Counted from the first letter of the stretch, positions 33,592 through 62,637 are shown. The stretch: 64,000 nucleotides of DNA from Candidatus Latescibacterota bacterium (GCA_965198115.1 OZ240241.1:1344001-1408000), one strand, 5' to 3'. A program made the numbers and translations. The notes: generated by a model from the letters alone, not told the origin.

Positions 33592-35011
33592 GGCTATATC
33601 CGGATCTCTCAACGAGATGAAGTGGGTGAAGGTGCCGTGGTTCCTGGCATGGGGGCGCGGTTAGAGTGTGCGGAACCTCTTCGGAATCTGCTCAGGGATG
33701 TTTATGTCTCCGACGGTAAGGAAGATCATATCGTTGAATGCGTCGAGTGTGCGGAATCCGCTGGCTCGGTTCTTGACGATTTGGACGATTCGGTTGAGGC
33801 CTTCGGCGATGGCGTTGGTAAGACGCGTGTTCACGAATGCGAGGACGCCGAAGAAGTGCTGTCGCAGGGTCCTGACGAACTTTCGCAGGGGTTCACGTCG
33901 ACTTCTGAGTGCGGACGTCGTCCAGCATTTCAGGAAGCGTTCGGCAGCCCAGGGCGCTTTGTATTCCCAGAACTGCTCGAACTCGTCCTTGAGTCTCCAG
34001 GCTCTATAGATTCGGTAGTTCGCCTCCTCCAGTGCTTTGAGTGTCCGAGTATCCCCTCTGGAGCGTGTCGCTGAGTGCCGGTAGAGGAGCCATCGGAGGC
34101 CCTTCATGGCTTTGCGCTCATCCGGGGCAGCTTTACGCCACTGGTCCTTACGGACCTCGTCAACGGCGGCATTGAGAGCCTTGACGATGTGAAAGCGATC
34201 GAGGACCAGCTTGGCATTCGGACAGTGTTCCTGGATGGCTCCGATGTAAGCTTCGCTCATGTCGCAGCAGGCCCACTCGATCTTGGATCTCCGGTAGGGA
34301 CTGAGAGCCTCTGTGAAGAACCGATCGATCGTTTTACGCGCCCTGCCGCGGCCAACCCACACCACGCAGGAGCGGTCCAGATCGTAAACGAGCGTGGCGT
34401 ACCTGTGACGCTTGGCGTAGGAGATCTCGTCGATCCCGATGGTTTTGAGCCCTCGGATACGATGACCTTCACGAAGCCGCGTGATGGATCGGTGAAGGAG
34501 ATCCGACAGCGTCGAGGCAGAGATGCGCAGTAACTCGGACGCCGCCTTCTGCGTCATGGTCTGGCAGTAGCGCAGCATGGCATACTCGAAGCGATACGTC
34601 ACCCGAGAGAACCGCTCCGCCCACGGAATCTCCTCGACCACACGACCGTGGGTAGGACACCGAATCTCCCGAGGATGGTAGAGAAGCCAGACCCTCCACC
34701 CGCACACCGGAATGTCACGCCACCGACGCGGATGGGGCATTGTGCGGACGATTTTACCTCGACGGCCGCACTCCGGACAACAACAACCATTCTTATGTGG
34801 CTTTACGGCGATGACGAAACAGCTTCTCCCCTCAAACCACCAGCTGACAACACGGAACCCCTTGAATCTCAGCAGTTTCGATAGTAATCTGCTCCCGGTC
34901 ATAGGTCGCACCCCCTTCGCTTTGATTGTCCTACACACACAACCAAGCGTAGGGAACGATCTATGACCTTGTCATTCTATAGTTTCACCGTTGAGAAACC
35001 CGGATAGAGCC
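33592..35011 (-). mobile_element. ISL3-family element (1420 bp)
   Basis: IRs GGCTCTATCCGGGTTTCTCAAC / GGCTATATCCGGATCTCTCAAC; flanked by ATTTTT on both sides. Confidence 0.95.
33661..34902 (-). CDS. ISL3-family transposase
   Basis: CPECG zinc finger, IGIDE, CCDMS, DRFH, TNAIAEGLN, ASGFR. Confidence 0.93.
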   Translation of the reverse strand: MTGSRLLSKLLRFKGFRVVSWWFEGRSCFVIAVKPHKNGCCCPECGRRGKIVRTMPHPRRWRDIPVCGWRVWLLYHPREIRCPTHGRVVEEIPWAERFSRVTYRFEYAMLRYCQTMTQKAASELLRISASTLSDLLHRSITRLREGHRIRGLKTIGIDEISYAKRHRYATLVYDLDRSCVVWVGRGRARKTIDRFFTEALSPYRRSKIEWACCDMSEAYIGAIQEHCPNAKLVLDRFHIVKALNAAVDEVRKDQWRKAAPDERKAMKGLRWLLYRHSATRSRGDTRTLKALEEANYRIYRAWRLKDEFEQFWEYKAPWAAERFLKCWTTSALRSRREPLRKFVRTLRQHFFGVLAFVNTRLTNAIAEGLNRIVQIVKNRASGFRTLDAFNDMIFLTVGDINIPEQIPKRFRTL

Positions 35012-36419: not shown

Positions 36420-37793
36420 GAGCTCAGGTCAATAGGTGTGTAAAAGAAATCAGGCGGCCATCTTCCCGGCTTCGACCTGCGGTCCGGTTGAGTGTTTCTG
36501 ATCGTAGACTTGTTGTAGCAAGTGTGGCGCGGTGAGTTTCCTGAATCGGCTCTCTGCGACCTTGAGCGTACGCCAGATGAGAGTCGTGGCGTTCCTGACT
36601 TTCTTGAATCGCCTGGCGGCGTTTGTGCGAAGCCGAACGGAAGCAAAGGGGCTCTCGACGACGTTCGTGGTTCTCAGGTGTTTCCAGTGTTCCTTCGGGA
36701 AGTCGTAGAACGTGACCATCCGATCCCAGTCTCTTTCGAGCGTCTCCACGGCGGCAGGGAACTGTGAGCGATACCGTGCGGCAAAGCGTTTCCGGAGCTT
36801 CTCGGCCTCCTTTTTCGTGCCGGCATAGGGGATCTGGACGAGCAGTGCGCGGGCTTCAGCCTGTGCACGCTTGGCGACCTTGTCGAGCACGTTGAGGATC
36901 TTGTGGTTCCAGCACCGTTGTTGCCGGCTCTCTGGCCAGACCTGATCAACGGCCGCCCAGATGCCCATATTCCCGTCCGCGGCGATCAGGACAGGATGTT
37001 CGAGCCCGCGATCCCGGAGATCCCGGAGCACCGTGAGCCAGGATTCTGTAGACTCTCGATAACCGGGTTCTATCGCCAGGATTTCCTTGCTGCCGTCGCT
37101 CATCGCGCCGATCACGACCAGCAGACACGCCTTCTCGCGCTCGAGCCCGGCTTTGACGTAGATGCCATCAGCCCAGGCGTAGACCAGTTCGCGATTATCC
37201 AGACGCCTTTCTTTCCAGTCCTGGAAGTCGACCTCCCACTTCCCTCGAAGACGAGCGATCGAGGTCGGCGAAAGCGGCGCGCCATCACCGAGCAGCGCAC
37301 GCAAAGACAACTCGAAGTCGCCCTGGGAGAGACCGTGGAGATAAAGGTCGGGAAGCAGATCTCCAATGGCCCTGGTTCTCCGGGCGAACAGGGGGAGGAT
37401 GCGGCTTTCAAACCGCTCTTCCAGACCACGAACCCGGGGACGCCGGACCTTGATCGTTCCGCAGCTCGTCGAGAGACGCCGGGGCTTGCCGTAGCCGTTC
37501 CTGTAGCCCCTGGAGCTATCGACCTCGGCTCGGCGCTCATACCACGACCGGCCCAAGAACGCGGTCGCCTCCTCCTCCAGAATGGACTGGAACCGGCTCT
37601 GGATCTCTTCACGGATCCAATCGTCAACCGTCTCCCACGTCGGCATGGACTTCAATGGGGTTCTATGCGTATGTTCCTTCACGGCGATCCTCCTTCCCAA
37701 CCGGGCCTCTCACCCGGTTTTGTGTGAATCAACTATCTCACGGGAAGGGTAGGGTCGCCCTTTCTCTTTTTCCACACCTTTTGATTATAGCTC
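36420..37793 (-). mobile_element. IS256-family element A, copy 2 (1374 bp)
   Basis: Same IRs as copy 1; 9-bp target duplication CTTGATCAT. Confidence 0.95.
36450..37682 (-). CDS. IS256-family DDE transposase
   Basis: Differs from copy 1 at only two residues. Confidence 0.93.
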   Translation of the reverse strand: MKEHTHRTPLKSMPTWETVDDWIREEIQSRFQSILEEEATAFLGRSWYERRAEVDSSRGYRNGYGKPRRLSTSCGTIKVRRPRVRGLEERFESRILPLFARRTRAIGDLLPDLYLHGLSQGDFELSLRALLGDGAPLSPTSIARLRGKWEVDFQDWKERRLDNRELVYAWADGIYVKAGLEREKACLLVVIGAMSDGSKEILAIEPGYRESTESWLTVLRDLRDRGLEHPVLIAADGNMGIWAAVDQVWPESRQQRCWNHKILNVLDKVAKRAQAEARALLVQIPYAGTKKEAEKLRKRFAARYRSQFPAAVETLERDWDRMVTFYDFPKEHWKHLRTTNVVESPFASVRLRTNAARRFKKVRNATTLIWRTLKVAESRFRKLTAPHLLQQVYDQKHSTGPQVEAGKMAA

Positions 37794-37984: not shown

Positions 37985-38653
37985 CTACGACGCATCGTCC
38001 GATTCCGCCAGGCCATCGGTCTGGTCGTCCTTGAACTCGATGCTCCAGTGCGACCCATCGCAAAAGGGTTTATTCTTGGACGCCCCACACCGGCAGAGGG
38101 CATAGTGCTCCCGCGAGGCCCCCTCACCCCACTCGACCTCGAGCAGCTCGACGCCACCGACGACCTCGTACGGACCGTCTTTCGAAACGGTGATCGCCGG
38201 CGACCGATCCTGGTCCTGATGTAACACACCGTCGACCGTATAACTGAGGGCGCCGGACGGACACTGCCGGATCGTATTGATCGAGGCGGCGGCTTCGTCG
38301 CCATCTGGGTCGATCCACGGTTCGGTTTTCATTCGCCAGACGTGAGGCAAACCCTCCGTGCAGGCCCCCGCGTGCGAGCAGATTCCCCGGTTGTCGTGGA
38401 TGGTGATCCCTTTTCCCACGTAGTCGTCTACCTGATCTGGGGACCGATCGTCCAGTTTCTCGTCGGAAAAGCCATTGGACGCGTGGGTGCCGTCGCAAAA
38501 CGGCTTGGTCTCTGATCCGCCACAGCGACACAGCGCAATCACTGGCTTCGTCGGAATGGCACCACCTTTGGAGTTGCGTAGATCCTCCAGTCCCTTGACC
38601 AGGAGGGGTGCGTCTTTCGCGAGTTCGATCGTAGGCTTGTCCGCCATCTGCAT
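37985..38653 (-). CDS. CDGSH iron-sulfur domain protein with central 4Fe-4S-type domain
   Basis: LCRCGGS..KPFCDGTH, CSHAGAC...CPSGAL, LCRCGASKNKPFCDGSH. Confidence 0.92.
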   Translation of the reverse strand: MQMADKPTIELAKDAPLLVKGLEDLRNSKGGAIPTKPVIALCRCGGSETKPFCDGTHASNGFSDEKLDDRSPDQVDDYVGKGITIHDNRGICSHAGACTEGLPHVWRMKTEPWIDPDGDEAAASINTIRQCPSGALSYTVDGVLHQDQDRSPAITVSKDGPYEVVGGVELLEVEWGEGASREHYALCRCGASKNKPFCDGSHWSIEFKDDQTDGLAESDDAS

Positions 38654-38876: not shown

Positions 38877-39887
38877 CTACAGCTCGCTGAGCTCTACTCG
38901 CCGGCCTTCCTTCGCACTTTTTACTGCACCGAACACCATCGCCATTGACTTCAAATTGTCCGTCGCATTGCATTCTGGCTCACGGTCCTCATCCAATGCG
39001 GTCAGAAATTCACACAACACGGGGTTCAGATCCCCCGTTGTCGGTTCGTCCAAATCGATCTGCTCCCTGACTTGAGGGTCGGCTTTATGTCGCTTCGTGC
39101 AGAAGAGATCGAAGCCCTCCCAAGTCAACGTACCTTCGGGCCCCTCGTATCGCCACTCTCCGTTGTGACCGGCCGGCACGTGTCCGATCGTGCAGCCGAT
39201 TCCCCGATGGGTCGCTACGACGCCGTTCTCGAACTCGAAGTGAATCAGCTGACACGCATCTCCCTCGTGCCAGCCCCACGGCAGATTCCAGGTGATGGCC
39301 TGAACACTGACCGGCTCGCAATCGAGCGTGTAGCGCATCATGTCGAAGTGATGGATGCCCATGTCCGTCAGAAACATGAACGGCTCGGTCACGTAATGGC
39401 TTCCCGGATTGTCCGCCCAATCAACGTAGAGGGAGACATCCAGCTGCGCGACATCTCCGACACGTGACTCCGACAACAACCGCCGTGTCGTTCGGGGCAG
39501 GGGGTTAAACCTGTAGTTCTGAGTGATCATGTGAATAACACCGGCAGCCTTCCCCGCCTCCACGACGCGCTTCGCAGCCTCGTAGTCGTCGCTCAGCGGC
39601 TTCTCCCCCAACACGTGGAGCCCTGTATCGAATGCAGCCATCGCGATTGTTTCGTGAACGGACGGCGGCGTCACGTCGACGACGAAGTCCGCATCCGTTG
39701 CGGAGGCAGCGGCCGAAACGCCGCCGTGAATCGCGTCGGCAGCAACATCCCATTCCTCCACCGCACGCTTGATCGAAGCGTCTGCCATCTCCACGTATCC
39801 CACGAGCTCCACGTCGGGATGCTCGCGACAGTTGGCCAACCAGTGCCGGGATCGTCCGCCCAATCCCACAAGAATCGCTTTTTTCAC
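38877..39887 (-). CDS. Gfo/Idh/MocA family oxidoreductase
   Basis: LVGLGG, TPP..H, HVLGEKP, QNYR, DMGIHHFD. Confidence 0.9.
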   Translation of the reverse strand: MKKAILVGLGGRSRHWLANCREHPDVELVGYVEMADASIKRAVEEWDVAADAIHGGVSAAASATDADFVVDVTPPSVHETIAMAAFDTGLHVLGEKPLSDDYEAAKRVVEAGKAAGVIHMITQNYRFNPLPRTTRRLLSESRVGDVAQLDVSLYVDWADNPGSHYVTEPFMFLTDMGIHHFDMMRYTLDCEPVSVQAITWNLPWGWHEGDACQLIHFEFENGVVATHRGIGCTIGHVPAGHNGEWRYEGPEGTLTWEGFDLFCTKRHKADPQVREQIDLDEPTTGDLNPVLCEFLTALDEDREPECNATDNLKSMAMVFGAVKSAKEGRRVELSEL

Positions 39888-40015: not shown

Positions 40016-40692
40016 TCACGACAGCGTCACGACATCCTGCTTCACGATCTCCTTCTCCTCCTGATATCCTGCCTTCGAGATCAGCTCGAGGGTCTCGGGC
40101 GACAACCGATCCTTGATTTCATCGGGGAAGGACTCACTCCCCTGCCACTGGAGATGGTAACGCAACACGAGGATCATTCGATTCCGATCTTTCGGCGTCC
40201 ACGGCAGAACGCCGTGCGTCAGCGCCTCGGTGATGATGACCAGGTCACCCGCCTTCGGTGTGATGTTCACGACGCCAGAGGGCAAATCCGATCCATCCTC
40301 GACCATTCCCTCGTTGAAAAGACTGGGTGGACGCTCGAACATCGACTTGTGGGACCCGGGAACGGCCAGGAGGCCACCATCGCCCGGATGCACGTCCGTC
40401 AGATACGGAAAGACGACGATGTGATCGCTGAACACACGGCTGTCGCGTACTTCATACTGAACGGAGTCCCAGTCGTCCTTGGCGCAATGCAGACGCTGCG
40501 CCATGTCGAGCGTATCCGGAAGATTCACTTGAAGCGTGCCACTCGACAGCCTGGGTCGCCCCTTCGTCAACTCCTTCACGACCGGCCAGGCTGCCGGATG
40601 CATCGTCAGCCGCTCGAGCGTCTTGTCGAACGCGAAGCCGTGCAAATGACGCTTTTCCAGGATCTCGAATCCGGGTGGCAGGTCCTCGGGAT
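40016..40692 (-). pseudogene. PhyH-like Fe(II)/2OG oxygenase, 5' end deleted
   Basis: HPAAWP, LHCA, YLTDVHPGDGGL..VPGSHK, KAGD...EALTHG.LPW; abuts a truncated IS256 transposase. Confidence 0.82.
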
Positions 40693-41512
40693 CGGGAAGA
40701 CGGCTTCAATCGCTTCAGGGAAGCCGTTGAGCCCATCTACACAGGCCAGGAAGATATCGTTGACGCCACGGTTCTGGAGCTCGGTCAGGACCGACATCCA
40801 GAACTTCGCGCCTTCGTTCTGAGCCGTCCAAAGGCCTAAGAGCTCTTTGTTTCCTGATAGATTAACGCCCAACGCAAGGTAGACGGCCTTGTTCGTGACG
40901 CTTCCATCGTCTCGAATCTTGACGCGGATCGCGTCCAGATAGACGATCGGATAGATGGTGTCCAGAGGTCTGGACTGCCAGGCCTTGACCTCCTCGATGA
41001 CATCATCAGTCACACTGGAGAGCAGCGAGGGAGAGACATCGACCCCGTAGAGCTCCTTCAGGTGCTCCTGAATCGCTCGAGTCGTCATCCCACGGGAATA
41101 CAGCGAGATGATCGTGTCATCAAACCTGTCGAACCGTCTCTGGCGCTTTCTGACGATCTGGGGCTCGAACTCACCATTGCGGTCCCGAGGCACTTCGATC
41201 GGGATCGCACCACGGTCGGTCTTCAGTGTCTTCGGAGTCTTGCCGTTGCGGGAGTTACCACTGTTCTTACCGTCAGAATCGTGCTTCTCGTAGCCCAGGT
41301 GGTCGGTTATCTCGCTTTCGAGCATCCGCTCCACCAGCCCGGCAGTCAGTTGCTTCAGCAGACCTTTCTCGCCCAGTAGGTCATCGGGACCGTCACAGTT
41401 CTTGATCAGCTCATCGAGGAGACGATCGACTTCAGCATTCCTGGCCATAGAACCTCCTGTTTCTTCACTATAGGATTCTATCACCAGTTACACGGTTAAT
41501 CTTACACACTCC
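40693..41512 (-). mobile_element. IS256-family element C, left end and truncated transposase (ATG at 41448)
   Basis: End GGAGTGTGTAAGATT; [34 protein letters not shown]; stops at EAVFP. Confidence 0.88.
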
Positions 41513-41714
41513 GATGACGAAGCAGCTTCTCCCCTCAAACCACCAGCTGACAACACGGACCCCCTTGAATCTCAGCAGTTTCGATAGTAATCTGCTCCCG
41601 GTCATAGGTCGCACCCCCTTCGCTTTGATTGTCCTACACACACAACCAAGCGTAGGGAACGATCTATGACCTTGTCATTCTATAGTTTCACCGTTGAGAA
41701 ACCCGGATAGAGCC
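41513..41714 (-). mobile_element. ISL3 left-end fragment (~200 bp)
   Basis: Matches the first ~200 bp of the complete ISL3 copies, including the left IR; cut by IS256-C. Confidence 0.9.
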
Positions 41715-42328
41715 ATAAAGAAGACCACGTCGCCCGCCTTGCATATCGGCTGATAGACCGCCCCCAGATCGTCCTCACGCCACCGAACGCCTTGGGGCAT
41801 CGTGTATTTGGACTTGTGGCTACCCGGAACGCATGAAAAACCCCCTGCACCCGGCGATTGGTCGGCCAGTTGCCAGGAAACCGTCACGCCACCGACCCAG
41901 TGGTTTTCACCGTTGTGATGGTACCCCACCCAGGGTTTATGAGGATCTCCGGAGCCGTGCATGCCGCCCCCGTCCATTCCCTTTACGTGCGAGATGATCT
42001 CCGGGCCGTGGTCCAGACGGAAGCCCCTCCCACACATCTCCAGCAGATGGGAAACGATCAAAGGATGCGCCAGCATCGCCCTGAACGGATCGCAATAGGG
42101 CTTTTCCATCTCCAGGAAGTGAGGATGCTGGTTGCTCGTGCGAACGACGATTCCATCCCGAATCGCCGCCCGCCCGGGGCGATCGCTCGCCTCCTGTTCC
42201 ATTTCGAGCACCTTTTGCGCGTAGAACTCGTAGGATTCGTTCGCCGCTTCAACCTGCGCCGGCGACAGAACCTGGCGGAGAACCAGGTAACCTGTCAGAT
42301 CCCAAAAATAGCGCTTTCGTGCGAACGT
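41715..42328 (-). pseudogene. PhyH-like Fe(II)/2OG oxygenase truncated by ISL3
   Basis: RYFWDLTGYL, FRLDHGP, MHGSG, CVPGSHKS, KAGDVVFFM | IS; the codon at the paralog start position after GGAGGGGG is ACG. Confidence 0.82.
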
Positions 42329-42348
42329 GACCCCCTCCGACGGCTTGC

Positions 42349-43557
42349 CTAGCGTCGTGCTTTCTTGGCTTTCTTTGCCGCCTTCTTCACTGCCCTCTTG
42401 ACCTTCTTTGCCGCCTTCTTCACGGCTCCTCTGGCCTTCTTCGCGGCCTTCTTGGCTGACCTCTTGGCTTTCTTGGCCGTCTTTTTTACGGTTGTAGCCG
42501 TCTTCTTCGCCGTTCTTTTCACTTTCTTGGCTGTTTTCTTTGCCGACCTCTTCGCCTTCCTGGCGGGTTTCTTCACCTTCTTTGCTTTTTTCGCTTTCTT
42601 GGCTGTTTTCTTTGCCGCTTTTTTCGCCTTTTTTGCCTTCTTCACTTTCTTCGCCCTCTTGGCCTTCTTCGCCGAAGCGCTCGCCGCACCCTCGATCCAG
42701 ACCCTGTCGCCATCGGAATCCAGGATCGGAAGTCGACCGCCGTGATGCACGCCAGGTCCGTAGAGAACGGCCTGCTGTTCCGGCGTCAGTTCATTCACCC
42801 ACTCGCCGTAGCGCTCCTGAGGCGTGAAGTGCTTGCCTACAGCACGTGCAGCGGCGCGAGATGCGTACTTGTAGAGGATGGAACGCCGGTCGTGATCGGC
42901 CGTCCACGGGAGCGTCCCGTGTGTCGCCGCTTCGGCGAAGAACAGCAGATCGCCCGCCTTCATTTCCACCTGCTCGACCAGACCCATGTCGTCTTCGTAG
43001 GTCCGAACTTCATTCGGCGTCGGCTCCGCGAGCTTATGACTTCCTGGAACGATCGCGAATCCACCGTCCCCCGGCCCGCAATCCGCCAGCTGCCACCCCA
43101 CCGTGATGCCACGACAGTAAATCTTGCCGTTCTGCTGGTGATACCACGTCGCCTGACTGAACGGCTCCCCCCCACCGTGGAATCGGTGGCCCTCGGACCC
43201 CTTCCTGGCCTGAATCATCATGGGGCCGTGGTCCAGGCGAAATCCCTTCCCGCTGAATTCATTCAAACGCGAGACGACGAATGGATGAACGAGCAGCTTG
43301 CGAAACGGCTCGCGGTAGTGCGGCTCCCACCCGAGCATGCCCGTCAATTCGGTTCGGCTCGACGATCCGGCCAATGACTTGGCACCGCGAGACAGACGAC
43401 CGGCTTCGAAATTTCTGGCCTGCGACATCTTGGCGTCGAGGGCGGCATTGAGTTCGCCGATTTCGCCCTGGCCGAGCACGCTGGGGATCACAAGGTAGCC
43501 GCGTAGATCGAAGAAGTACATCTCTTCGTCGGATACTCGGTGCACCTCGTAGTTCAT
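42349..43557 (-). CDS. PhyH-like Fe(II)/2OG oxygenase with C-terminal histone-H1-like Lys/Ala tail
   Basis: YFFDLRGY, FRLDHGP, FHGGG, IVPGSHK, AEAATHGTLPW, RRS, then ~110 aa of AKK/TAKK repeats; RBS AAGGAG. Confidence 0.9.
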   Translation of the reverse strand: MNYEVHRVSDEEMYFFDLRGYLVIPSVLGQGEIGELNAALDAKMSQARNFEAGRLSRGAKSLAGSSSRTELTGMLGWEPHYREPFRKLLVHPFVVSRLNEFSGKGFRLDHGPMMIQARKGSEGHRFHGGGEPFSQATWYHQQNGKIYCRGITVGWQLADCGPGDGGFAIVPGSHKLAEPTPNEVRTYEDDMGLVEQVEMKAGDLLFFAEAATHGTLPWTADHDRRSILYKYASRAAARAVGKHFTPQERYGEWVNELTPEQQAVLYGPGVHHGGRLPILDSDGDRVWIEGAASASAKKAKRAKKVKKAKKAKKAAKKTAKKAKKAKKVKKPARKAKRSAKKTAKKVKRTAKKTATTVKKTAKKAKRSAKKAAKKARGAVKKAAKKVKRAVKKAAKKAKKARR

Positions 43558-43614
43558 CTTATGCTCCTTCCGTGATTGTGATCCACGCCCTGTACGCGCG
43601 GAGTTCTTATGCAC

Positions 43615-43712
43615 TTATGCGGCTCGCTGTGCGCTCGTGGGATTCTCGAGCCGAACCGTACCGTCGTCTTCGACTGCCAGATACATATCTTCTCGATTGG
43701 GTGCCGAGCAAG
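43615..43712 (-). pseudogene. 3' remnant of another PhyH-like paralog
   Basis: PCSAPNREDMYLAVEDDGTVRL resembles the C-termini PSSSPQTDGPYLDLDEDGVVKV of 61698 and 62638; cut by IS256. Confidence 0.55.
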
Positions 43713-45086
43713 GAGCTATAATCAAAAGGTGTGGAAAAAGAGAAAGGGCGACCCTACCCTTCCCGTGAGATAGTTGATTCACACAAAACCGGGTGAGAGG
43801 CCCGGTTGGGAAGGAGGATCGCCGTGAAGGAACATACGCATAGAGCCCCATTGAAGTCCATGCCGACGTGGGAGACGGTTGACGATTGGATCCGTGAAGA
43901 GATCCAGGGCCGGTTCCAGTCCATTCTGGAGGAGGAGGCGACCGCGTTCTTGGGCCGGTCGTGGTATGAGCGCCGAGCCGAGGTCGATAGCTCCACGGGC
44001 TACAGGAACGGCTACGGCAAGCCCCGGCGTCTCTCGACGAGCTGCGGAACGATCAAGGTCCGGCGTCCCCGGGTTCGTGGTCTGGAAGAGCGGTTTGAAA
44101 GCCGCATCCTCCCCCTGTTCGCCCGGAGAACCAGGGCCATTGGAGATCTGCTTCCCGACCTTTATCTCCACGGTCTCTCCCAGGGCGACTTCGAGTTGTC
44201 TTTGCGTGCGCTGCTCGGTGATGGCGCGCCGCTTTCGCCGACCTCGATCGCTCGTCTTCGAGGGAAGTGGGAGGTCGACTTCCAGGACTGGAAAGAAAGG
44301 CGTCTGGATAATCGCGAACTGGTCTACGCCTGGGCTGATGGCATCTACGTCAAAGCCGGGCTCGAGCGCGAGAAGGCGTGTCTGCTGGTCGTGATCGGCG
44401 CGATGAGCGACGGCAGCAAGGAGATCCTGGCGATAGAACCCGGTTATCGAGAGTCTACAGAATCCTGGCTCACGGTGCTCCGGGATCTCCGGGATCGCGG
44501 GCTCGAACATCCTGTCCTGATCGCCGCGGACGGGAATATGGGCATCTGGGCGGCCGTTGATCAGGTCTGGCCAGAGAGCCGGCAACAACGGTGCTGGAAC
44601 CACAAGATCCTCAACGTGCTCGACAAGGTCGCCAAGCGTGCACAGGCTGAAGCCCGCGCACTGCTCGTCCAGATCCCCTATGCCGGCACGAAAAAGGAGG
44701 CCGAGAAGCTCCGGAAACGCTTTGCCGCACGGTATCGCTCACAGTTCCCTGCCGCCGTGGAGACGCTCGAAAGAGACTGGGATCGGATGGTCACGTTCTA
44801 CGACTTCCCGAAGGAACACTGGAAACACCTGAGAACCACGAACGTCGTCGAGAGCCCCTTTGCTTCCGTTCGGCTTCGCACAAACGCCGCCAGGCGATTC
44901 AAGAAAGTCAGGAACGCCACGGCTCTCATCTGGCGTACGCTCAAGGTCGCAGAGAGCCGATTCAGGAAACTCACCGCGCCACACTTGCTACAACAAGTCT
45001 ACGATCAGAAACACTCAACCGAACCGCAGGTCGAAGCCGGGAAGATGGCCGCCTGATTTCTTTTACACACCTATTGACCTGAGCTC
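43713..45086 (+). mobile_element. IS256-family element A, copy 3 (1374 bp)
   Basis: Same IRs; no target duplication (CGAGCAAG vs CTCACCTC). Confidence 0.95.
43824..45056 (+). CDS. IS256-family DDE transposase
   Basis: Near-identical to copy 1. Confidence 0.93.
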   Translation: MKEHTHRAPLKSMPTWETVDDWIREEIQGRFQSILEEEATAFLGRSWYERRAEVDSSTGYRNGYGKPRRLSTSCGTIKVRRPRVRGLEERFESRILPLFARRTRAIGDLLPDLYLHGLSQGDFELSLRALLGDGAPLSPTSIARLRGKWEVDFQDWKERRLDNRELVYAWADGIYVKAGLEREKACLLVVIGAMSDGSKEILAIEPGYRESTESWLTVLRDLRDRGLEHPVLIAADGNMGIWAAVDQVWPESRQQRCWNHKILNVLDKVAKRAQAEARALLVQIPYAGTKKEAEKLRKRFAARYRSQFPAAVETLERDWDRMVTFYDFPKEHWKHLRTTNVVESPFASVRLRTNAARRFKKVRNATALIWRTLKVAESRFRKLTAPHLLQQVYDQKHSTEPQVEAGKMAA

Positions 45087-45353
45087 CTCACCTCACGTAA
45101 AAGATACCACGTGCACTACACACCAACGTATGCCTCCTGGCTAAACCAGGTAGAGATCTGGTTCGGCATCATCACACAAAGAGCAATCCGACGAGGAACC
45201 TTTCGGAACGTCAAGGATCTGATCACCTGCATCCAGAAGTTCACAGACCAATACAATCAGAACTCAAAGCCTTTCGTGTGGACGGCAACCGCTGACTCGA
45301 TCCTCGACAAACTCAACAGACTTCTAAAACTTATTCGCGGGACACGACACTAG
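45087..45353 (+). mobile_element. IS630-family transposase 3' fragment and right end
   Basis: HYTPTYASWLNQVEIWF..I...AIRRGTF...KPFVWTATADSIL; ends GACACGACACTA. Confidence 0.88.
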
Positions 45354-45572
45354 GTGCCTGTCACTCAGGCGATCGCGGCCGGAAGCCGCTCCTACCCGTT
45401 TTCAAGTTTCGTGTCCTGTCTTTCGCGCCTATTCGCGGTTGGAGACCGCCCACCGCGAATCTTCGGGGCGAAGCCGTCGTTTACGTCTACCGTCAACCGT
45501 CCCCAAGGAGGCGAAGCCGCTTTTCCGCCCACAGCCGACTGCCCACGGTTTACTGTCTACCGTCCACCGGTT

Positions 45573-46277
45573 CTATGGTTCCCACGTCAGGCAATTTCGG
45601 AGTATCTGTCGGTACGCCTCCTGCTCGAAGTCCTGCGGCAGATGTCCCGGTTGAAAGTAAAACGTCCATCCCTTCCCCGACGGTTTCACCCAGCCACCCC
45701 GATCCTGCATCACGACTTCGCCATCCTTTGTCGTACACTTCGTACCGAACAGCACGGTTTTCTCGCGCCCATCCGCAAAGTGCTGGTTCTTGAAGAACTC
45801 AGTGCCCGTGAACGTGATCGACGGAAAAGTAACCTTCTTGCTCGGCGCATCAGAAGAGGTGTATTCCGTCGTTGTCGGGTAATCGACACCATTCGTCGAG
45901 ATGTAGTGACGCGGATCCAGACGCACGAGTTCGTGTGTCACGTCGACCATCAGTGTCCACGGATTGACCTCACCGTCCTTCGGTACGATGTGCATCCCTG
46001 CGAATTCGAGCCAATCGGGATTCTTCAATTTCGCCGATGCCATTCCATGGTGCAGGATTACGAGCCGTCCCCCGCTATTGGCGTAGGCAATCATTGCATC
46101 GATCGCATTCTGCTCCACGACCTTGTGCACGTACATGAACACGGCGTAGTAGTTGGATAAATCCGCCTCGACATCCTTATCCTCGGCGGTCGTAACCGCG
46201 TGCCCATCCGCCTCCAGAAACGCCTGCAACGGTTTCATCTGATCCCATTCATCCGCGACGATCAACAGATCAGCCAT
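45573..46277 (-). CDS. ThuA-like (class I glutamine amidotransferase-like) protein
   Basis: YANSGGRLVILHH, GKGWTFYFQPGH, YRQILRNCLTW. Confidence 0.75.
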   Translation of the reverse strand: MADLLIVADEWDQMKPLQAFLEADGHAVTTAEDKDVEADLSNYYAVFMYVHKVVEQNAIDAMIAYANSGGRLVILHHGMASAKLKNPDWLEFAGMHIVPKDGEVNPWTLMVDVTHELVRLDPRHYISTNGVDYPTTTEYTSSDAPSKKVTFPSITFTGTEFFKNQHFADGREKTVLFGTKCTTKDGEVVMQDRGGWVKPSGKGWTFYFQPGHLPQDFEQEAYRQILRNCLTWEP

Positions 46278-46324
46278 GGTCAATCCTTATTCGTCAGGGT
46301 GTGTGCCGCCTCAGCTTTAGTCAT

Positions 46325-46950
46325 GACCTCCGGCAAAGCCGGAGGCTTGAAAACTTGTGAACCGCTCAAAGCGGTTGGAAACCAAGCGCCACCTAAAGGT
46401 GGCGATTACCTGAAAATGTTGAGCTGGTCGAGACTCAGGTCCTCCCGCTCCTGGTTCTGGATATACTCCCGAACCGTCTGTTCATCCTTGCCAACGGTGG
46501 AGACCCAGTAGCCTCTTGCCCAGAAATGCTGCCCGGTGAAGTTCGACCTAACCTACGTCCCAGATAGTTCCGAGCAATGTGAATCGCACTCTTTCCTTTG
46601 ATGAACCCTACCGTCTGAGCTACTGAGTGCTTCGGCGGGATCGAAATCAGCATGTGCACATGGTCGGATCGCAGGTGACCCTCTTCCACGCGGCATTCCT
46701 TCTGTGCGGCCAGATCCCGAATCACCTCGCCCAGATAGCGACGAATTTCACCATACAACACTTTTCTACGATACTTCCGAACCCAAACAACGTCATACTT
46801 GCACTCCCAAACCGTGTGACGTAGACTCCTTACGTTGTTCATTAGAGAGCCTTCCTTCCGTGTGCTTTGAGCGGTCCACGGCAAGGGAGGCTCTTACATA
46901 TTTCTGGAACTGTCAAACTCTGGGAGTCTCCCCGGCAGAGCCGGGGGCTT
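46325..46950 (-). mobile_element. tnpA: IS200-like element; tnpA (46406..46842) frameshifted
   Basis: CKY.VVW..KYRRK, HUH motif DHVH, IKGKS, FWARGY.VSTVG..E..VREYIQNQ; terminal hairpins CCTCCGGCAAAGCCGGAGG and CCCCGGCAGAGCCGGGG; ends approximate. Confidence 0.9.
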
Positions 46951-47036: not shown

Positions 47037-48410
47037 GAGCTATAATCAAAAGGTGTGGAAAAAGAGAAAGGGCGACCCTACCCTTCCCGTGAGATAGTTG
47101 ATTCACACAAAACCGGGTGAGAGGCCCGGTTGGGAAGGAGGATCGCCGTGAAGGAACATACGCATAGAGCCCCATTGAAGTCCATGCCGACGTGGGAGAC
47201 GGTTGACGATTGGATCCGTGAAGAGATCCAGGGCCGGTTCCAGTCCATTCTGGAGGAGGAGGCGACCGCGTTCTTGGGCCGGTCGTGGTATGAGCGCCGA
47301 GCCGAGGTCGATAGCTCCACGGGCTACAGGAACGGCTACGGCAAGCCCCGGCGTCTCTCGACGAGCTGCGGAACGATCAAGGTCCGGCGTCCCCGGGTTC
47401 GTGGTCTGGAAGAGCGGTTTGAAAGCCGCATCCTCCCCCTGTTCGCCCGGAGAACCAGGGCCATTGGAGATCTGCTTCCCGACCTTTATCTCCACGGTCT
47501 CTCCCAGGGCGACTTCGAGTTGTCTTTGCGTGCGCTGCTCGGTGATGGCGCGCCGCTTTCGCCGACCTCGATCGCTCGTCTTCGAGGGAAGTGGGAGGTC
47601 GACTTCCAGGACTGGAAAGAAAGGCGTCTGGATAATCGCGAACTGGTCTACGCCTGGGCTGATGGCATCTACGTCAAAGCCGGGCTCGAGCGCGAGAAGG
47701 CGTGTCTGCTGGTCGTGATCGGCGCGATGAGCGACGGCAGCAAGGAGATCCTGGCGATAGAACCCGGTTATCGAGAGTCTACAGAATCCTGGCTCACGGT
47801 GCTCCGGGATCTCCGGGATCGCGGGCTCGAACATCCTGTCCTGATCGCCGCGGACGGGAATATGGGCATCTGGGCGGCCGTTGATCAGGTCTGGCCAGAG
47901 AGCCGGCAACAACGGTGCTGGAACCACAAGATCCTCAACGTGCTCGACAAGGTCGCCAAGCGTGCACAGGCTGAAGCCCGCGCACTGCTCGTCCAGATCC
48001 CCTATGCCGGCACGAAAAAGGAGGCCGAGAAGCTCCGGAAACGCTTTGCCGCACGGTATCGCTCACAGTTCCCTGCCGCCGTGGAGACGCTCGAAAGAGA
48101 CTGGGATCGGATGGTCACGTTCTACGACTTCCCGAAGGAACACTGGAAACACCTGAGAACCACGAACGTCGTCGAGAGCCCCTTTGCTTCCGTTCGGCTT
48201 CGCACAAACGCCGCCAGGCGATTCAAGAAAGTCAGGAACGCCACGACTCTCATCTGGCGTACGCTCAAGGTCGCAGAGAGCCGATTCAGGAAACTCACCG
48301 CGCCACACTTGCTACAACAAGTCTACGATCAGAAACACTCAACCGAACCGCAGGTCGAAGCCGGGAAGATGGCCGCCTGATTTCTTTTACACACCTATTG
48401 ACCTGAACTC
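47037..48410 (+). mobile_element. IS256-family element A, copy 4 (1374 bp)
   Basis: Same IRs; flanks AGTATATA / AGTATATT (7 of 8 match). Confidence 0.95.
47148..48380 (+). CDS. IS256-family DDE transposase
   Basis: Near-identical to copy 1. Confidence 0.93.
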   Translation: MKEHTHRAPLKSMPTWETVDDWIREEIQGRFQSILEEEATAFLGRSWYERRAEVDSSTGYRNGYGKPRRLSTSCGTIKVRRPRVRGLEERFESRILPLFARRTRAIGDLLPDLYLHGLSQGDFELSLRALLGDGAPLSPTSIARLRGKWEVDFQDWKERRLDNRELVYAWADGIYVKAGLEREKACLLVVIGAMSDGSKEILAIEPGYRESTESWLTVLRDLRDRGLEHPVLIAADGNMGIWAAVDQVWPESRQQRCWNHKILNVLDKVAKRAQAEARALLVQIPYAGTKKEAEKLRKRFAARYRSQFPAAVETLERDWDRMVTFYDFPKEHWKHLRTTNVVESPFASVRLRTNAARRFKKVRNATTLIWRTLKVAESRFRKLTAPHLLQQVYDQKHSTEPQVEAGKMAA

Positions 48411-48425
48411 AGTATATTTATTTTA

Positions 48426-49845
48426 GGCTATATCCGGATCTCTCAACGAGATGAAGTGGGTGAAGGTGCCGTGGTTCCTGGCATGGGGGCGCGGTTAGAG
48501 TGTGCGGAACCTCTTCGGAATCTGCTCAGGGATGTTTATGTCTCCGACGGTAAGGAAGATCATATCGTTGAATGCGTCGAGTGTGCGGAATCCGCTGGCT
48601 CGGTTCTTGACGATTTGGACGATTCGGTTGAGGCCTTCGGCGATGGCGTTGGTAAGACGCGTGTTCACGAATGCGAGGACGCCGAAGAAGTGCTGTCGCA
48701 GGGTCCTGACGAACTTTCGCAGGGGTTCAAGTCGACTTCTGAGTGCGGACGTCGTCCAGCATTTCAGGAAGCGTTCGGCAGCCCAGGGCGCTTTGTATTC
48801 CCAGAACTGCTCGAACTCGTCCTTGAGTCTCCAGGCTCTATAGATTCGGTAGTTCGCCTTCTCCAGTGCTTTGAGTGTCCGAGTATCCCCTCTGGAGCGT
48901 GTCGCTGAGTGCCGGTAGAGGAGCCATCGGAGGCCCTTCATGGCTTTGCGCTCATCCGGGGCAGCTTTACGCCACTGGTCCTTACGGACCTCGTCAACGG
49001 CGGCATTGAGAGCCTTGACGATGTGAAAGCGATCGAGGACCAGCTTGGCATTCGGACAGTGTTCCTGGATGGCTCCGATGTAAGCTTCGCTCATGTCGCA
49101 GCAGGCCCACTCGATCTTGGATCTCCGGTAGGGACTGAGAGCCTCTGTGAAGAACCGATCGATCGTTTTACGCGCCCTGCCGCGGCCAACCCACACCACG
49201 CAGGAGCGGTCCAGATCGTAAACGAGCGTGGCGTACCTGTGACGCTTGGCGTAGGAGATCTCGTCGATCCCGATGGTTTTGAGCCCTCGGATACGATGAC
49301 CTTCACGAAGCCGCGTGATGGATCGGTGAAGGAGATCCGACAGCGTCGAGGCAGAGATGCGCAGCAACTCGGACGCCGCCTTCTGCGTCATGGTCTGGCA
49401 GTAGCGCAGCATGGCATACTCGAAGCGATACGTCACCCGAGAGAACCGCTCCGCCCACGGAATCTCCTCGACCACACGACCGTGGGTAGGACACCGAATC
49501 TCCCGAGGATGGTAGAGAAGCCAGACCCTCCACCCGCACACCGGAATGTCACGCCACCGACGCGGATGGGGCATTGTGCGGACGATTTTACCTCGACGGC
49601 CGCACTCCGGACAACAACAACCATTCTTATGTGGCTTTACGGCGATGACGAAACAGCTTCTCCCCTCAAACCACCAGCTGACAACACGGAACCCCTTGAA
49701 TCTCAGCAGTTTCGATAGTAATCTGCTCCCGGTCATAGGTCGCACCCCCTTCGCTTTGATTGTCCTACACACACAACCAAGCGTAGGGAACGATCTATGA
49801 CCTTGTCATTCTATAGTTTCACCGTTGAGAAACCCGGATAGAGCC
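48426..49845 (-). mobile_element. ISL3-family element (1420 bp)
   Basis: Both IRs; 8-bp target duplication TTATTTTA. Confidence 0.96.
48495..49736 (-). CDS. ISL3-family transposase
   Basis: Near-identical to 33661..34902. Confidence 0.93.
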   Translation of the reverse strand: MTGSRLLSKLLRFKGFRVVSWWFEGRSCFVIAVKPHKNGCCCPECGRRGKIVRTMPHPRRWRDIPVCGWRVWLLYHPREIRCPTHGRVVEEIPWAERFSRVTYRFEYAMLRYCQTMTQKAASELLRISASTLSDLLHRSITRLREGHRIRGLKTIGIDEISYAKRHRYATLVYDLDRSCVVWVGRGRARKTIDRFFTEALSPYRRSKIEWACCDMSEAYIGAIQEHCPNAKLVLDRFHIVKALNAAVDEVRKDQWRKAAPDERKAMKGLRWLLYRHSATRSRGDTRTLKALEKANYRIYRAWRLKDEFEQFWEYKAPWAAERFLKCWTTSALRSRLEPLRKFVRTLRQHFFGVLAFVNTRLTNAIAEGLNRIVQIVKNRASGFRTLDAFNDMIFLTVGDINIPEQIPKRFRTL

Positions 49846-50210: not shown

Positions 50211-51598
50211 GGTCAAGTCCCATAGTCAGTTGAAAACTCATCGGGCCCCGTAGTTTGGTCAGGCTCTCTTTTGAGCATTCTGTTCGTTGTCGAGATTCAG
50301 ATCTTTGTTCAGTGCTTGCCTGAGTAGGGGAAGATGTTTGTATCCGCTCACGCGTCGCAGGCGAGGTTCGATGTCGAGGAGTGCGGCAGCCACCCATCTG
50401 TGTCTCTGGGGAGAGTTGTTCCAGCGTCTGACCTTCCGAGTGAGCTCGCCGGTCCTGCTGTTGAGGGCTTCGATGCAGTTGGTGGTTCGGAAGCTTCGTT
50501 TCAGGAATGGGAGCATACCCAGCCGGTGGAGGGTCAGGGTTTCCTCCAGGCCTTCCTCGAGGCTCGTTACGGCAGACTGATTCATCAGCTTCAGTTCGGG
50601 TTTAAGTGATTCGAGTGCGGCCTTTGCCTCCTCGTAGGTGTCGCAGTCATAGGCTTTCTGGAGCTTCCGTCGAACTCTTGGACGTTCCCTCTCCGGGAGA
50701 TAGCTGACGACATTCTCGCGCTTGTGCCACTGACAGCGATGCACGCGCACATACCCTTTGAGGGCTTTGGTGACAGCACTGCGGAGTCCCTTTGAGCCGT
50801 CAAGCACAACGAGAAGGCCCTGGTCGTAGCACAGGCCTCTCCGGATGAGGTCCTGGATCAGCTGGCGGCAGATCCGTTCGTTCTCCGTCGCCGATTCGAC
50901 GAAGCCCAGGGGGATCTTCTGGCCGTCCATCGTGACCCCCGGAGCGATCACGATCTCTTCGTCGGCAAAGCTCTTTCCGTCAATGAACAGGGTCACGAAG
51001 CCGTAGTCGTCGAGGGGACGCTCCTGGAACTGCTTCAGCTTCTTCGCGGTGGCTTTGATGAACCGCCGCGAGACGGAGGACGCTGAGATACCAAACGCTT
51101 CTGGAACCGATTCGGCACAGGCCTTGTAGTTGCGGCACGAGATCCCCTTGAGAACACGAAGCAACAGCCCCTCGTCCGTCTTCTTGGGCGTCTGTAGAGC
51201 CCGGTATGCAGCCAGGGAAACCTCTGCGTCGGCCTCGACGTCGCGCACCCGGGGAACGTCTAACGGGAGCTTCTGGTCCATCAGATACACGGATCCCTTC
51301 TGGCTTCCCCACCGACGATGCGCCTGCTCCGAACCTTTGCGCGCATACCGAACGCCTGCGAGCTGCTCGACCTCCTGCTGGAGGAGGTCTGCCACTGCCT
51401 CCAGACCCAACGGGATCAACGCCTGGATCACCGACAAACGCGTCTCCAAATCGATGACATCGCCCTCAACCTTGACTTCACCATCGCCTGCAAATAGCTT
51501 CTCCATCTGGGCTCCTTTCTTACGGGTATACGCTCCTACACGTCTACCCAACGTAAGTTTGGAGCCCTCTAAGTTTCAACTACGATAGGCACAACACC
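50211..51598 (-). mobile_element. IS256-family element B (1388 bp)
   Basis: Imperfect IRs GGTCAAGTCCCATAGTCAGTTGAAA / GGTGTTGTGCCTATCGTAGTTGAAA; 9-bp target duplication TTTCAGGTT. Confidence 0.9.
50259..51506 (-). CDS. IS256-family DDE transposase (type B)
   Basis: FIDG, VLDGSKGL, RCQWHK, RTTNCIE; ATG after AAAGGAG. Confidence 0.9.
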   Translation of the reverse strand: MEKLFAGDGEVKVEGDVIDLETRLSVIQALIPLGLEAVADLLQQEVEQLAGVRYARKGSEQAHRRWGSQKGSVYLMDQKLPLDVPRVRDVEADAEVSLAAYRALQTPKKTDEGLLLRVLKGISCRNYKACAESVPEAFGISASSVSRRFIKATAKKLKQFQERPLDDYGFVTLFIDGKSFADEEIVIAPGVTMDGQKIPLGFVESATENERICRQLIQDLIRRGLCYDQGLLVVLDGSKGLRSAVTKALKGYVRVHRCQWHKRENVVSYLPERERPRVRRKLQKAYDCDTYEEAKAALESLKPELKLMNQSAVTSLEEGLEETLTLHRLGMLPFLKRSFRTTNCIEALNSRTGELTRKVRRWNNSPQRHRWVAAALLDIEPRLRRVSGYKHLPLLRQALNKDLNLDNEQNAQKRA

Positions 51599-62633: not shown

Positions 62634-62637
62634 GTGC

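What the first reader, a model, noticed from the sequence alone, without database searches (positions are those of the whole stretch)
42349..43557. Fe/2OG enzyme fused to a histone-H1-like polybasic tail
Seen: a complete PhyH-like domain continues in frame into ~110 aa made mostly of K, A and R (AKKAKK, AKKTAKK). Codon use in the tail is varied, so it is not a simple slippage run, and its stop is followed by the next gene's RBS. It is the only intact gene of its array. Established: such tails bind DNA in chlamydial Hc1/Hc2, Pseudomonas AlgP and mycobacterial HupB and Ku, and other 2OG enzymes (AlkB, TET/JBP) modify nucleic acids. Inference: a nucleoid-, RNA- or polyanion-tethered oxygenase/halogenase, possibly acting on nucleic acid. 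I know of no described PhyH plus H1-tail architecture.
Basis: partly seen in the sequence, partly recalled or inferred. Interest (0 to 1): 0.75.

Follow-up and report, generated by a model that had tools for sequence, protein, structure and literature searches.

The report
Oxygenase with histone-like lysine tail
One branch of uncultured Latescibacterota bacteria has a real, conserved fusion of an iron/2-oxoglutarate oxygenase to a long lysine/alanine tail; the tail likely sticks an enzyme predicted to act on small molecules to DNA, RNA or polyphosphate, and nothing found here points to the enzyme modifying DNA itself.

Summary
The fusion is real. ORF 43557-42349(-) encodes a PhyH domain (residues 1-290) and a 111-residue tail (50 K, 32 A, 9 R, no acids). 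One 2,049-bp read contig bridges it with no differences. Of the 13 closest homologue clusters, 11 carry such a tail (44-139 aa with cluster members); 0 of the next 107 do. Only 1 of 150 distant representatives and 1 of 137 PhyH-like frames in this genome has one, so it is a clade-limited gain.

The enzyme has the HygX-type metal motif (H127-x-G129, E209-x3-H213), and HygX is the top fold match. A glutamate ligand is therefore predicted, which argues against a halogenase. The core matches tail-less orthologues and sits among ThuA-like, Gfo/Idh/MocA and mutarotase-like genes, with no AlkB/TET signal. A nucleic-acid substrate is unsupported.

Best reading: a small-molecule oxygenase with a non-specific polyanion tether (binding untested). 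The lineage also has a free H1-like protein and basic tags on other proteins. This scan earlier noted such tails on other enzymes in other genomes (unchecked notes); it had not noted this one. New variant of a known kind; moderate interest.

The parts
42349..43557 (-). Fusion gene, 402 aa: HygX-type PhyH-family Fe(II)/2OG oxygenase plus Lys/Ala tail (P0001)
42688..43557 (-). Catalytic double-stranded beta-helix domain, residues 1-290; 79-90% identical to close orthologues with or without a tail
43171..43179 (-). H127-G128-G129 (HxG in place of HxD); H127 invariant in 68 aligned homologues
42919..42933 (-). E209-A-A-T-H213, aligned to the E-x3-H of HygX; predicted second and third iron ligands; both invariant in 68 homologues
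42886..42888 (-). R224, invariant; predicted 2-oxoglutarate-binding arginine (inferred from its position in the fold)
42352..42684 (-). Polybasic tail, residues 292-402: 59 K/R, no D/E, no aromatic residue, no run of three basic residues; basic residues spaced at about 3.5 residues
43564..43569 (-). Shine-Dalgarno-like AAGGAG, 6 nt before the ATG
   Evidence: read from the sequence
43621..43725 (-). 3' remnant of the upstream PhyH paralogue that is whole in G001; cut by the multi-copy element at about 43730-45080
41714..42338 (-). Broken downstream PhyH paralogue: GGAGG at 42331-42338, ACG at 42326-42328 where relatives have ATG, truncated by a transposon end near 41715
40016..40687 (-). Fourth PhyH paralogue, residues 42-266 of its G001 orthologue (81% identical); 5' part replaced by an IS256-type fragment
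38877..39884 (-). Gfo/Idh/MocA oxidoreductase of the same operon (weak matches to inositol and sugar dehydrogenases, all below cut-off); syntenic in G001
45573..46283 (-). ThuA-like gene, upstream member of the same operon in G001; here separated from it by inserted elements

Best explanation
This is a HygX-type iron/2-oxoglutarate oxygenase, predicted to oxidise a small molecule (likely a sugar or glycoside), fused in one Latescibacterota clade to a lysine/alanine tail that likely tethers it non-specifically to a cytoplasmic polyanion such as nucleoid DNA, RNA or polyphosphate.

Shown: the fusion, its clade-limited spread, the metal motif, the fold and the operon.

Inferred: (1) Fe(II) is held by H127, E209 and H213, and 2OG by R224. 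(2) The substrate is the same as in the tail-less orthologues. (3) The tail is flexible when free and would become partly helical on binding, with its lysines on one face. (4) The tail changes where the enzyme sits, not what it does. (5) The tail was gained once, either from a copy of the lineage's free H1-like gene or by local repeat growth.
For: Tail kept: it is in frame in 11 of the 13 closest clusters and in 18 of 42 further members of 10 of these clusters; 16 lack it and 8 are fragments. Tail-bearing domains are only 80-95% identical to each other, and about half of the conserved codons differ silently between G000 and G001.

Composition kept while length drifts from 44 to 139 aa: pooled 43% K, 26% A, 2.5% D+E. 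In 14 of 14 tails the basic residues show 100-degree periodicity above all 100 shuffles. The tail DNA has A-runs (4 in G000, 6 in G001) and one other frame is open, yet only two tails end in a few off-pattern residues.

Origin: all 19 tail rows fall in one 26-row clade (support 93/86), and a single origin is not rejected (p-AU 0.098).

Enzyme: top sequence and fold matches are HygX (Z 21.8, rmsd 2.9, 213 aligned). Neighbours are ThuA-like, Gfo/Idh/MocA and rhamnose-mutarotase-like genes.

Precedent: lysine repeats occur on DNA-binding proteins (PMC7398561, passages). AlgP and PhaF link granules to the nucleoid (PMC11894788, passages). A 22-residue basic tail localises Caulobacter Ppk1 (PMC3806658, passages). 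The genome has ppk1.
Against: No binding, localisation or expression data. Most orthologues work without a tail: 107 of 107 further listed homologues, and 29 of the 32 genomes of the order with a close orthologue. No reason is known why this enzyme would need tethering.

The lineage carries KKAKKA stretches on several unrelated proteins, which also fits a general tolerance for such repeats. The substrate class rests on neighbours and on a 21-25% identical structure; the HygX match is tied with FtmOx1 (Z 21.1), and HygX Lys137 is Thr152 here. In this genome the operon is broken up by IS elements and no sigma-70-like promoter was found at 41500-46500.
Confidence: 0.5

Rival explanations
1. The tail is a tolerated, nearly neutral low-complexity appendage, for example a captured piece of the free H1-like gene, that persists because it does little harm.
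For: Length varies three-fold, and from 58 to 97 aa among five near-identical domains. The sister lineages P0005, P0011 and P0132 lack it. K/A stretches sit on several unrelated proteins of the lineage. Repeat units are multiples of three bases, so slippage alone keeps the frame.
Against: It is retained with almost no acidic or aromatic residues across proteins 80-95% identical. Charge periodicity is kept in 14 of 14 tails. Third-position changes (35) exceed first plus second (21) in 79 aligned tail codons of G000 and G001, though low-complexity alignment inflates this. A +58 segment is unlikely to be inert in the cytoplasm (inference).
Confidence: 0.17
2. The protein is becoming a structural or moonlighting nucleoid protein: the tail does the work, the PhyH domain mainly displays several tails, and it no longer needs its old partner genes.
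For: The neighbouring MDARERY-type paralogue has a full-length match beside 25 of 27 tail-less orthologues. It is reduced to a 3' remnant in 2 of the 3 tail-bearing genomes (G000, G010), where the tail gene stays whole.
Against: Only three genomes, one of them heavily disrupted by IS elements. All predicted catalytic residues are invariant in the 13 aligned tail-bearing proteins. The cells already have a free H1-like gene and five HU/IHF genes.
Confidence: 0.12
3. One reading: a DNA- or RNA-modifying oxygenase or halogenase whose tail delivers it to its substrate.
For: The tail resembles DNA-binding lysine repeats; 175 of 554 lysine-repeat proteins of Streptomyces are annotated as DNA-binding (PMC5714199, passages). 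The domain is slightly less acidic in 14 tail-bearing proteins (mean net charge -1.5) than in 14 tail-less ones (-7.2). PhyH-fold enzymes can act on free 2'-O-methyl nucleosides (PMC12709175, abstract).
Against: The same abstract reports no activity on nucleotides or RNA. There is no AlkB/TET-type Pfam hit. No column clearly separates tail-bearing cores from their closest tail-less relatives. The context is catabolic. The E-x3-H glutamate is predicted to complete the metal site. The charge difference is confounded by kinship.
Confidence: 0.08
4. The tail is a cationic amphipathic helix that binds anionic membrane lipids or another anionic surface rather than nucleic acid.
For: Mean helical hydrophobic moment 0.57 against 0.24 in shuffles, with 0 of 300 reaching it; 33-bp (11-residue) DNA period.
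Against: The non-basic face is mostly Ala, with almost no large hydrophobic residues. The same periodicity is found in 4 of 5 free H1-like proteins. Mixed AKK and AAKK units give a 3-4 period by themselves.
Confidence: 0.08
5. Assembly artefact or chance read-through joining a separate histone-like gene to the oxygenase.
For: Long repeats are prone to assembly errors, and some tail lengths in the databases may be collapsed.
Against: A bridging contig shows no differences. The same junction occurs in 10 other clusters and 2 other genomes. The free H1-like gene lies 2.7 Mb away, beside guaB.
Confidence: 0.01

Closest known systems
HygX, hygromycin B orthoester-forming oxygenase of Streptomyces hygroscopicus (PDB 4XC9, 4XCA, 4XCB, 4ZPI)
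   Same: Best sequence match among solved structures (E 2e-10) and top Foldseek match (E 6e-17). Same H-X-G...E-X3-H metal motif (review passage).
   Different: 21-25% identity; HygX Lys137 aligns to an invariant Thr152; no aminoglycoside cluster nearby; no such tail in the 258-261 aa HygX chains; substrate unknown here.
Histone-H1-like lysine-repeat domains: Streptomyces/Mycobacterium TopA CTD, HupS/HupB, Ku; Pseudomonas AlgP and PhaF; Chlamydia Hc2
   Same: K/A-rich low-complexity basic segment whose length varies by repeat gain and loss (Hc2: 165-237 aa, abstract).
   Different: Attached to a small-molecule-type oxygenase rather than a DNA-processing or granule protein. One proline in 111 residues, so not KPAA-type. 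No Pfam hit for the tail.
Caulobacter crescentus Ppk1 basic C-terminal tail
   Same: A basic C-terminal tail acts as a localisation signal on an enzyme (PMC3806658, passages).
   Different: That tail is 22 aa and belongs to the enzyme that makes polyphosphate; this one is 44-139 aa on an unrelated oxygenase.
Expanded PhyH families of Poribacteria and Latescibacterota
   Same: Many diverse PhyH paralogues of mostly unknown function (PMC3909097, passages); 137 PhyH-like frames in this genome.
   Different: That paper does not mention histones or halogenation (0 occurrences); only 1 of 137 frames here has a K-rich part.
Free H1-like protein beside guaB in the same order
   Same: Same K/A make-up, mostly an Arg-rich end, and similar charge spacing.
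   Different: Stand-alone, about 68-100 aa. No DNA-level kinship with the tail beyond amino-acid composition in 12 of 12 comparisons.

Membership tests
PhyH-like Fe(II)/2OG oxygenases (PF05721) | Profile score above the curated cut-off | tested here: met
   48.5 bits against 22, residues 16-225
PhyH-like Fe(II)/2OG oxygenases (PF05721) | Double-stranded beta-helix fold of the PhyH type | tested here: met
   Model with mean pLDDT 83.9; matches to HygX, FtmOx1, SptF, PrhA at Z 20-22, rmsd about 3
PhyH-like Fe(II)/2OG oxygenases (PF05721) | Canonical HxD/E...H facial triad | tested here: not met
   H127-G-G129; the acid is relocated to E209
PhyH-like Fe(II)/2OG oxygenases (PF05721) | Fe(II)- and 2OG-dependent turnover | not testable with these tools
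   needs an assay
HygX-type oxygenases | H-X-G...E-X3-H metal motif | tested here: met
   H127, E209 and H213 invariant in 68 homologues; E-x3-H aligned to HygX; motif as given in PMC13374393. The HxG part of HygX itself lay just outside the printed alignment.
HygX-type oxygenases | Active-site lysine (HygX Lys137) | tested here: not met
   aligns to invariant Thr152, taking chain position as residue number
HygX-type oxygenases | Place in an orthosomycin/aminoglycoside biosynthetic cluster | tested here: not met
   neighbours are PhyH paralogues, ThuA-like, Gfo/Idh/MocA, mutarotase-like and IS genes
Fe/2OG halogenases (SyrB2/WelO5/BesD type; criteria recalled) | HxG/A in place of HxD | tested here: met
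   H127-G-G129
Fe/2OG halogenases (SyrB2/WelO5/BesD type; criteria recalled) | No protein carboxylate ligand, leaving a site for halide | tested here: inconclusive
   Invariant E209 sits at the HygX ligand position, which argues against; metal geometry could not be read from the model
Nucleic-acid oxygenases (AlkB, TET/JBP) | Match to an AlkB- or TET/JBP-type Pfam profile | tested here: not met
   PF05721 is the only Pfam family at E <= 0.01
Nucleic-acid oxygenases (AlkB, TET/JBP) | Closest fold is an AlkB- or TET-type enzyme | tested here: inconclusive
   the listed rows are filled by PhyH-type small-molecule enzymes; an unlisted family is not excluded
Bacterial histone-H1-like domains (Hc1/Hc2, AlgP, PhaF, HupB CTD, TopA lysine repeats) | K/A-rich, acid-poor degenerate repeats of variable length | tested here: met
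Bacterial histone-H1-like domains (Hc1/Hc2, AlgP, PhaF, HupB CTD, TopA lysine repeats) | Profile match to a named family | tested here: inconclusive
   no Pfam family at E <= 0.1 for the tail or for the free protein; composition filters can suppress such hits
Bacterial histone-H1-like domains (Hc1/Hc2, AlgP, PhaF, HupB CTD, TopA lysine repeats) | KPAA/AAKP repeat unit of AlgP and PhaF | tested here: not met
   1 Pro in 111 residues; 2% Pro in 14 pooled tails
Bacterial histone-H1-like domains (Hc1/Hc2, AlgP, PhaF, HupB CTD, TopA lysine repeats) | Binds DNA or polyphosphate | not testable with these tools
   needs a binding assay

The most novel reading that the evidence does not exclude
After capturing an H1-like tail, this HygX-type oxygenase left its sugar-catabolic operon partners behind and became a nucleoid-bound enzyme acting on DNA, RNA or nucleoid-associated molecules. 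It would be the first bacterial 2OG oxygenase outside the AlkB and TET/JBP lines aimed at chromatin, with non-canonical H/E/H chemistry.
Probability: 0.1. Interest if true: 0.85.

Novelty: new variant of a known kind. Interest (0 to 1): 0.4.

Why it matters
The clade holds a natural pair: tail-bearing and tail-less orthologues 79-89% identical. This makes it a clean system for asking what H1-like tails do on metabolic enzymes (nucleoid, polyphosphate or condensate targeting, or nothing). It also shows that the HygX-type H/E/H metal site, known from one antibiotic enzyme, is common in a large uncharacterised family of Latescibacterota and Poribacteria oxygenases. If the enzyme did modify nucleic acid, it would be a new route to bacterial chromatin chemistry, but nothing found here points that way.

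Tried and rejected
Misassembly: rejected.

Halogenase: disfavoured by E209.

Origin of the tail from the free H1-like gene: tested against synonymous reshuffles. No excess DNA similarity in 12 of 12 tail-versus-free pairs, but none either in 3 of 3 pairs of orthologous tails, so the test has no power at this distance.

Other PhyH groups with such tails: a search with residues 205-402 gave 46 hits and the same 11 tail clusters. Among the 150 best 50%-identity representatives (of 2,219) only the clade's own has a K-rich stretch. Longer fused forms: none at E <= 0.001 among 2,940 candidates, weak evidence.

ESM Atlas gave only plain PhyH clusters, all scoring under 0.9. NCBIfam gave nothing near a cut-off for the protein. 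No AlkB or TET entry is among the listed fold rows, which does not exclude them.

Expression: no RNA holder listed. Promoter scan: none found, 1.4 expected by chance.

The test of whether the enzyme pairs with its neighbouring paralogue was not available, so that question is open. The primary HygX paper (McCulloch 2015) is not held, so the motif comes from a review; no supplements were read.

Literature searches that found no description of a PhyH plus H1-tail protein: (open-licence library only).

Full report
Observation. Window 43557-42349 (minus strand) is one 402-codon frame. Pfam PF05721 covers residues 16-225 above its cut-off, and homology to tail-less relatives runs to residue 290. Residues 292-402 hold 50 Lys, 32 Ala, 9 Arg and no acidic or aromatic residue. 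Only 6 of 75,133 six-frame ORFs in the 8.43-Mb genome reach 14 Lys in 40 residues. Codons are mixed, but the DNA is a degenerate tandem array with 33-, 12- and 9-bp periods. One 2,049-bp contig spans 41690-43738 without a difference in 2 of 3 runs laid; these two are one sample and probably the source.

Host. Close homologues lie in genomes titled Candidatus Latescibacterota (10 of 12 loci), and named cluster members are Latescibacterota, Handelsmanbacteria or Gemmatimonadota. The genome has 137 PhyH-like frames, of which only this one has 8 or more Lys in 30 residues. A similar PhyH expansion is described for Poribacteria (PMC3909097, passages).

Spread of the tail. Of 120 listed homologues (of 2,128), the 13 closest (81% or more identical, the query included) contain 11 with a tail and 2 without; none of the other 107 has one. 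Among 42 further members of 10 of these clusters, 18 have a tail, 16 end just after the domain and 8 are fragments; tails run from 44 to 139 aa. Of 53 genomes of the order, 32 hold a close orthologue, and the tail's DNA matched the orthologue's locus only in G000, G001 and G010. In a tree of 44 domains, chosen from the closest clusters plus sampled outgroups, the 19 tail rows lie in one 26-row clade (93/86) together with 7 tail-less rows whose placement is unresolved. Holding the tails together is not rejected (p-AU 0.098), which does not prove one origin. A search with residues 205-402 returned the same 11 clusters. Among the 150 best of 2,219 distant representatives, only the clade's own has a K-rich stretch. 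The tail is thus a gain limited to one clade.

Is the tail selected? Tail-bearing domains are 80-95% identical to each other. Between G000 and G001, 136 of 261 conserved domain codons differ silently, so the lineages are well separated. The tails vary three-fold in length yet keep 43% Lys, 26% Ala and 2.5% acids (14 tails pooled). Eleven of 14 end in two basic residues, 13 of 14 in Arg, and all 14 show basic residues at 100-degree spacing above 100 of 100 shuffles. Against this, codon-multiple repeat units keep the frame by themselves, AKK and AAKK units give a 3-4 period trivially, database tail lengths may be mis-collapsed, and DNA was available for only three tails. I read this as probable, not proven, selection for charge and pattern. 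AlphaFold draws the tail as long helices with a low-confidence break at 330-353; such predictions for low-complexity chains are weak.

The enzyme. A profile of 68 homologues finds HygX first among solved structures (E 2e-10). Foldseek's first ten rows are HygX. VIA-align gives HygX Z 21.8 (rmsd 2.9, 213 aligned), tied within 1 with FtmOx1, SptF and PrhA. A review describes HygX's metal site as H-X-G...E-X3-H, with the acid relocated and Lys137 in the gap (PMC13374393, passages). Here H127, E209, H213 and R224 are invariant in 68 homologues, E209-x3-H213 aligns with HygX's E-x3-H, and Lys137 aligns with an invariant Thr152. The combination H, G, E, H occurs in 66 of 131 fully covered domains among distant relatives, so it is a family trait unrelated to the tail. 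Of 98 positions invariant in 40 distant tail-less orthologues, 89 are also invariant in 14 tail-bearing ones. Of 18 columns typical of the tail group, 16 are shared with most of the 3 nearest tail-less proteins. Nothing suggests a change of substrate when the tail arrived, apart from a slightly less acidic domain (mean -1.5 against -7.2; kin-confounded).

Context. In G001 the operon reads PhyH, ThuA-like, PhyH, tail gene, PhyH, Gfo/Idh/MocA, then a rhamnose-mutarotase-like gene, a further PhyH and a 270-aa gene with no Pfam hit. G010 keeps the downstream part without the Gfo gene. The NCBIfam matches of these neighbours are all below cut-off, so 'sugar or polyol catabolism' is an inference. 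In this genome IS elements have broken the array: upstream paralogue remnant, downstream paralogue with ACG start and truncation, fourth paralogue cut, mutarotase split. An MDARERY-type paralogue has a full-length match beside 25 of 27 tail-less orthologues (one split across frames, one at a contig end). It is whole in G001 but only a 3' remnant in G000 and G010. This hint of decoupling rests on three genomes, and the pairing could not be tested by complex prediction.

Basic tags elsewhere in the lineage. A search with the tail's DNA hit 17 of 53 genomes. The other hits examined were mostly a free K/A protein, seen in 9 genomes and lying beside guaB where the neighbour could be read, an unknown protein with an N-terminal KKAKKA run, and a Ku protein. 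A conserved Gfo/Idh/MocA enzyme also starts with a short basic segment in 10 of 11 loci printed. No DNA-level kinship between the tail and the free gene was detectable, but the test also failed between orthologous tails. The genome has ppk1 and five HU/IHF genes.

Comparison with what is known. Lysine repeats occur on TopA, HupS/HupB, Ku and HrdB (PMC7398561, passages). In Streptomyces, 175 of 554 proteins with such repeats are annotated as DNA-binding, so most are not (PMC5714199, passages). AlgP and PhaF use H1-like domains to link granules to the nucleoid (PMC11894788, passages). Hc2 varies in length by repeats (PMC2848022, abstract). A 22-residue basic tail positions Caulobacter Ppk1 (PMC3806658, passages). 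PHYHD1-type enzymes demethylate free nucleosides but not RNA (PMC12709175, abstract). Searches found no PhyH protein with such a tail. Earlier unchecked notes of this scan report the same kind of tail on transketolase, PPDK, YgeY, Bcp and others in other genomes. If they hold, this is one more case of a recurring pattern, not a singular design; I did not test them and do not count them as support.

Verdict. The most likely reading (0.5) is a HygX-type small-molecule oxygenase with a clade-specific polyanion tether. Rivals are a tolerated appendage (0.17), a moonlighting nucleoid role (0.12), a nucleic-acid substrate (0.08) and a membrane tether (0.08). It is a new variant of a known kind; interest 0.4.

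Noticed in passing
whole genome G000; e.g. window 33661-34938, 36450-37700, 43806-45056, 47130-48380, 48495-49772, 50259-51551: Very high IS load: 226 near-full copies of one element (ISL3-like, label recalled), 133 of another (IS256-like, label recalled), 30 of a third and 43 of an IS200-like tnpA (label recalled), each at 90% identity or more. Many genes in the window are broken by them.
   Followed up: partly
L075:3760-3963 (G000:C1:4049759-4049962) and L067-L072, L074, L079: A free K/A protein of about 68-100 aa, with no Pfam hit, occurs in both families of the order and lies beside guaB where the neighbour could be read; a candidate unannotated H1-like nucleoid protein.
   Followed up: partly
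family of P0001 (P0164-P0310) and G000 paralogues: The HygX-type H-x-G...E-x3-H site is common in this large uncharacterised PhyH subfamily (66 of 131 covered domains). The MDARERY-type neighbours instead have an invariant D-x-A-Q-x-H, a further variant site.
   Followed up: partly
L076:4048-4977, L078, L081, L073, L082, L087: A conserved protein of about 310-460 aa with no Pfam hit: N-terminal KKAKKA run, an RRGRR-rich middle and a conserved C-terminal domain; a possible RNA- or nucleoid-associated protein of the lineage.
   Followed up: no
L077:3589-4617 and L093-L103: A single-copy Gfo/Idh/MocA oxidoreductase, found in 51 of 53 genomes of the order, begins with a short basic K/A segment; in G000 it lies just before a PhyH gene.
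   Followed up: partly
window 37985-38653 (-): A 222-aa protein with two CDGSH iron-sulfur motifs around a Fer4_19 domain lies within the operon; G010 has only a short remnant-like ORF of it at the matching place.
   Followed up: no
window 42326-42790 (-), frame of the downstream gene: The frame of the broken downstream PhyH gene stays open for 158 codons back through the tail's DNA; probably a by-product of K/A codons, and that frame is not joined to a gene in G001.
   Followed up: partly
window 61698-63576 (+): A second pair of PhyH paralogues of the same subfamily (39-45% identical to the genes of this array), without a tail.
   Followed up: no
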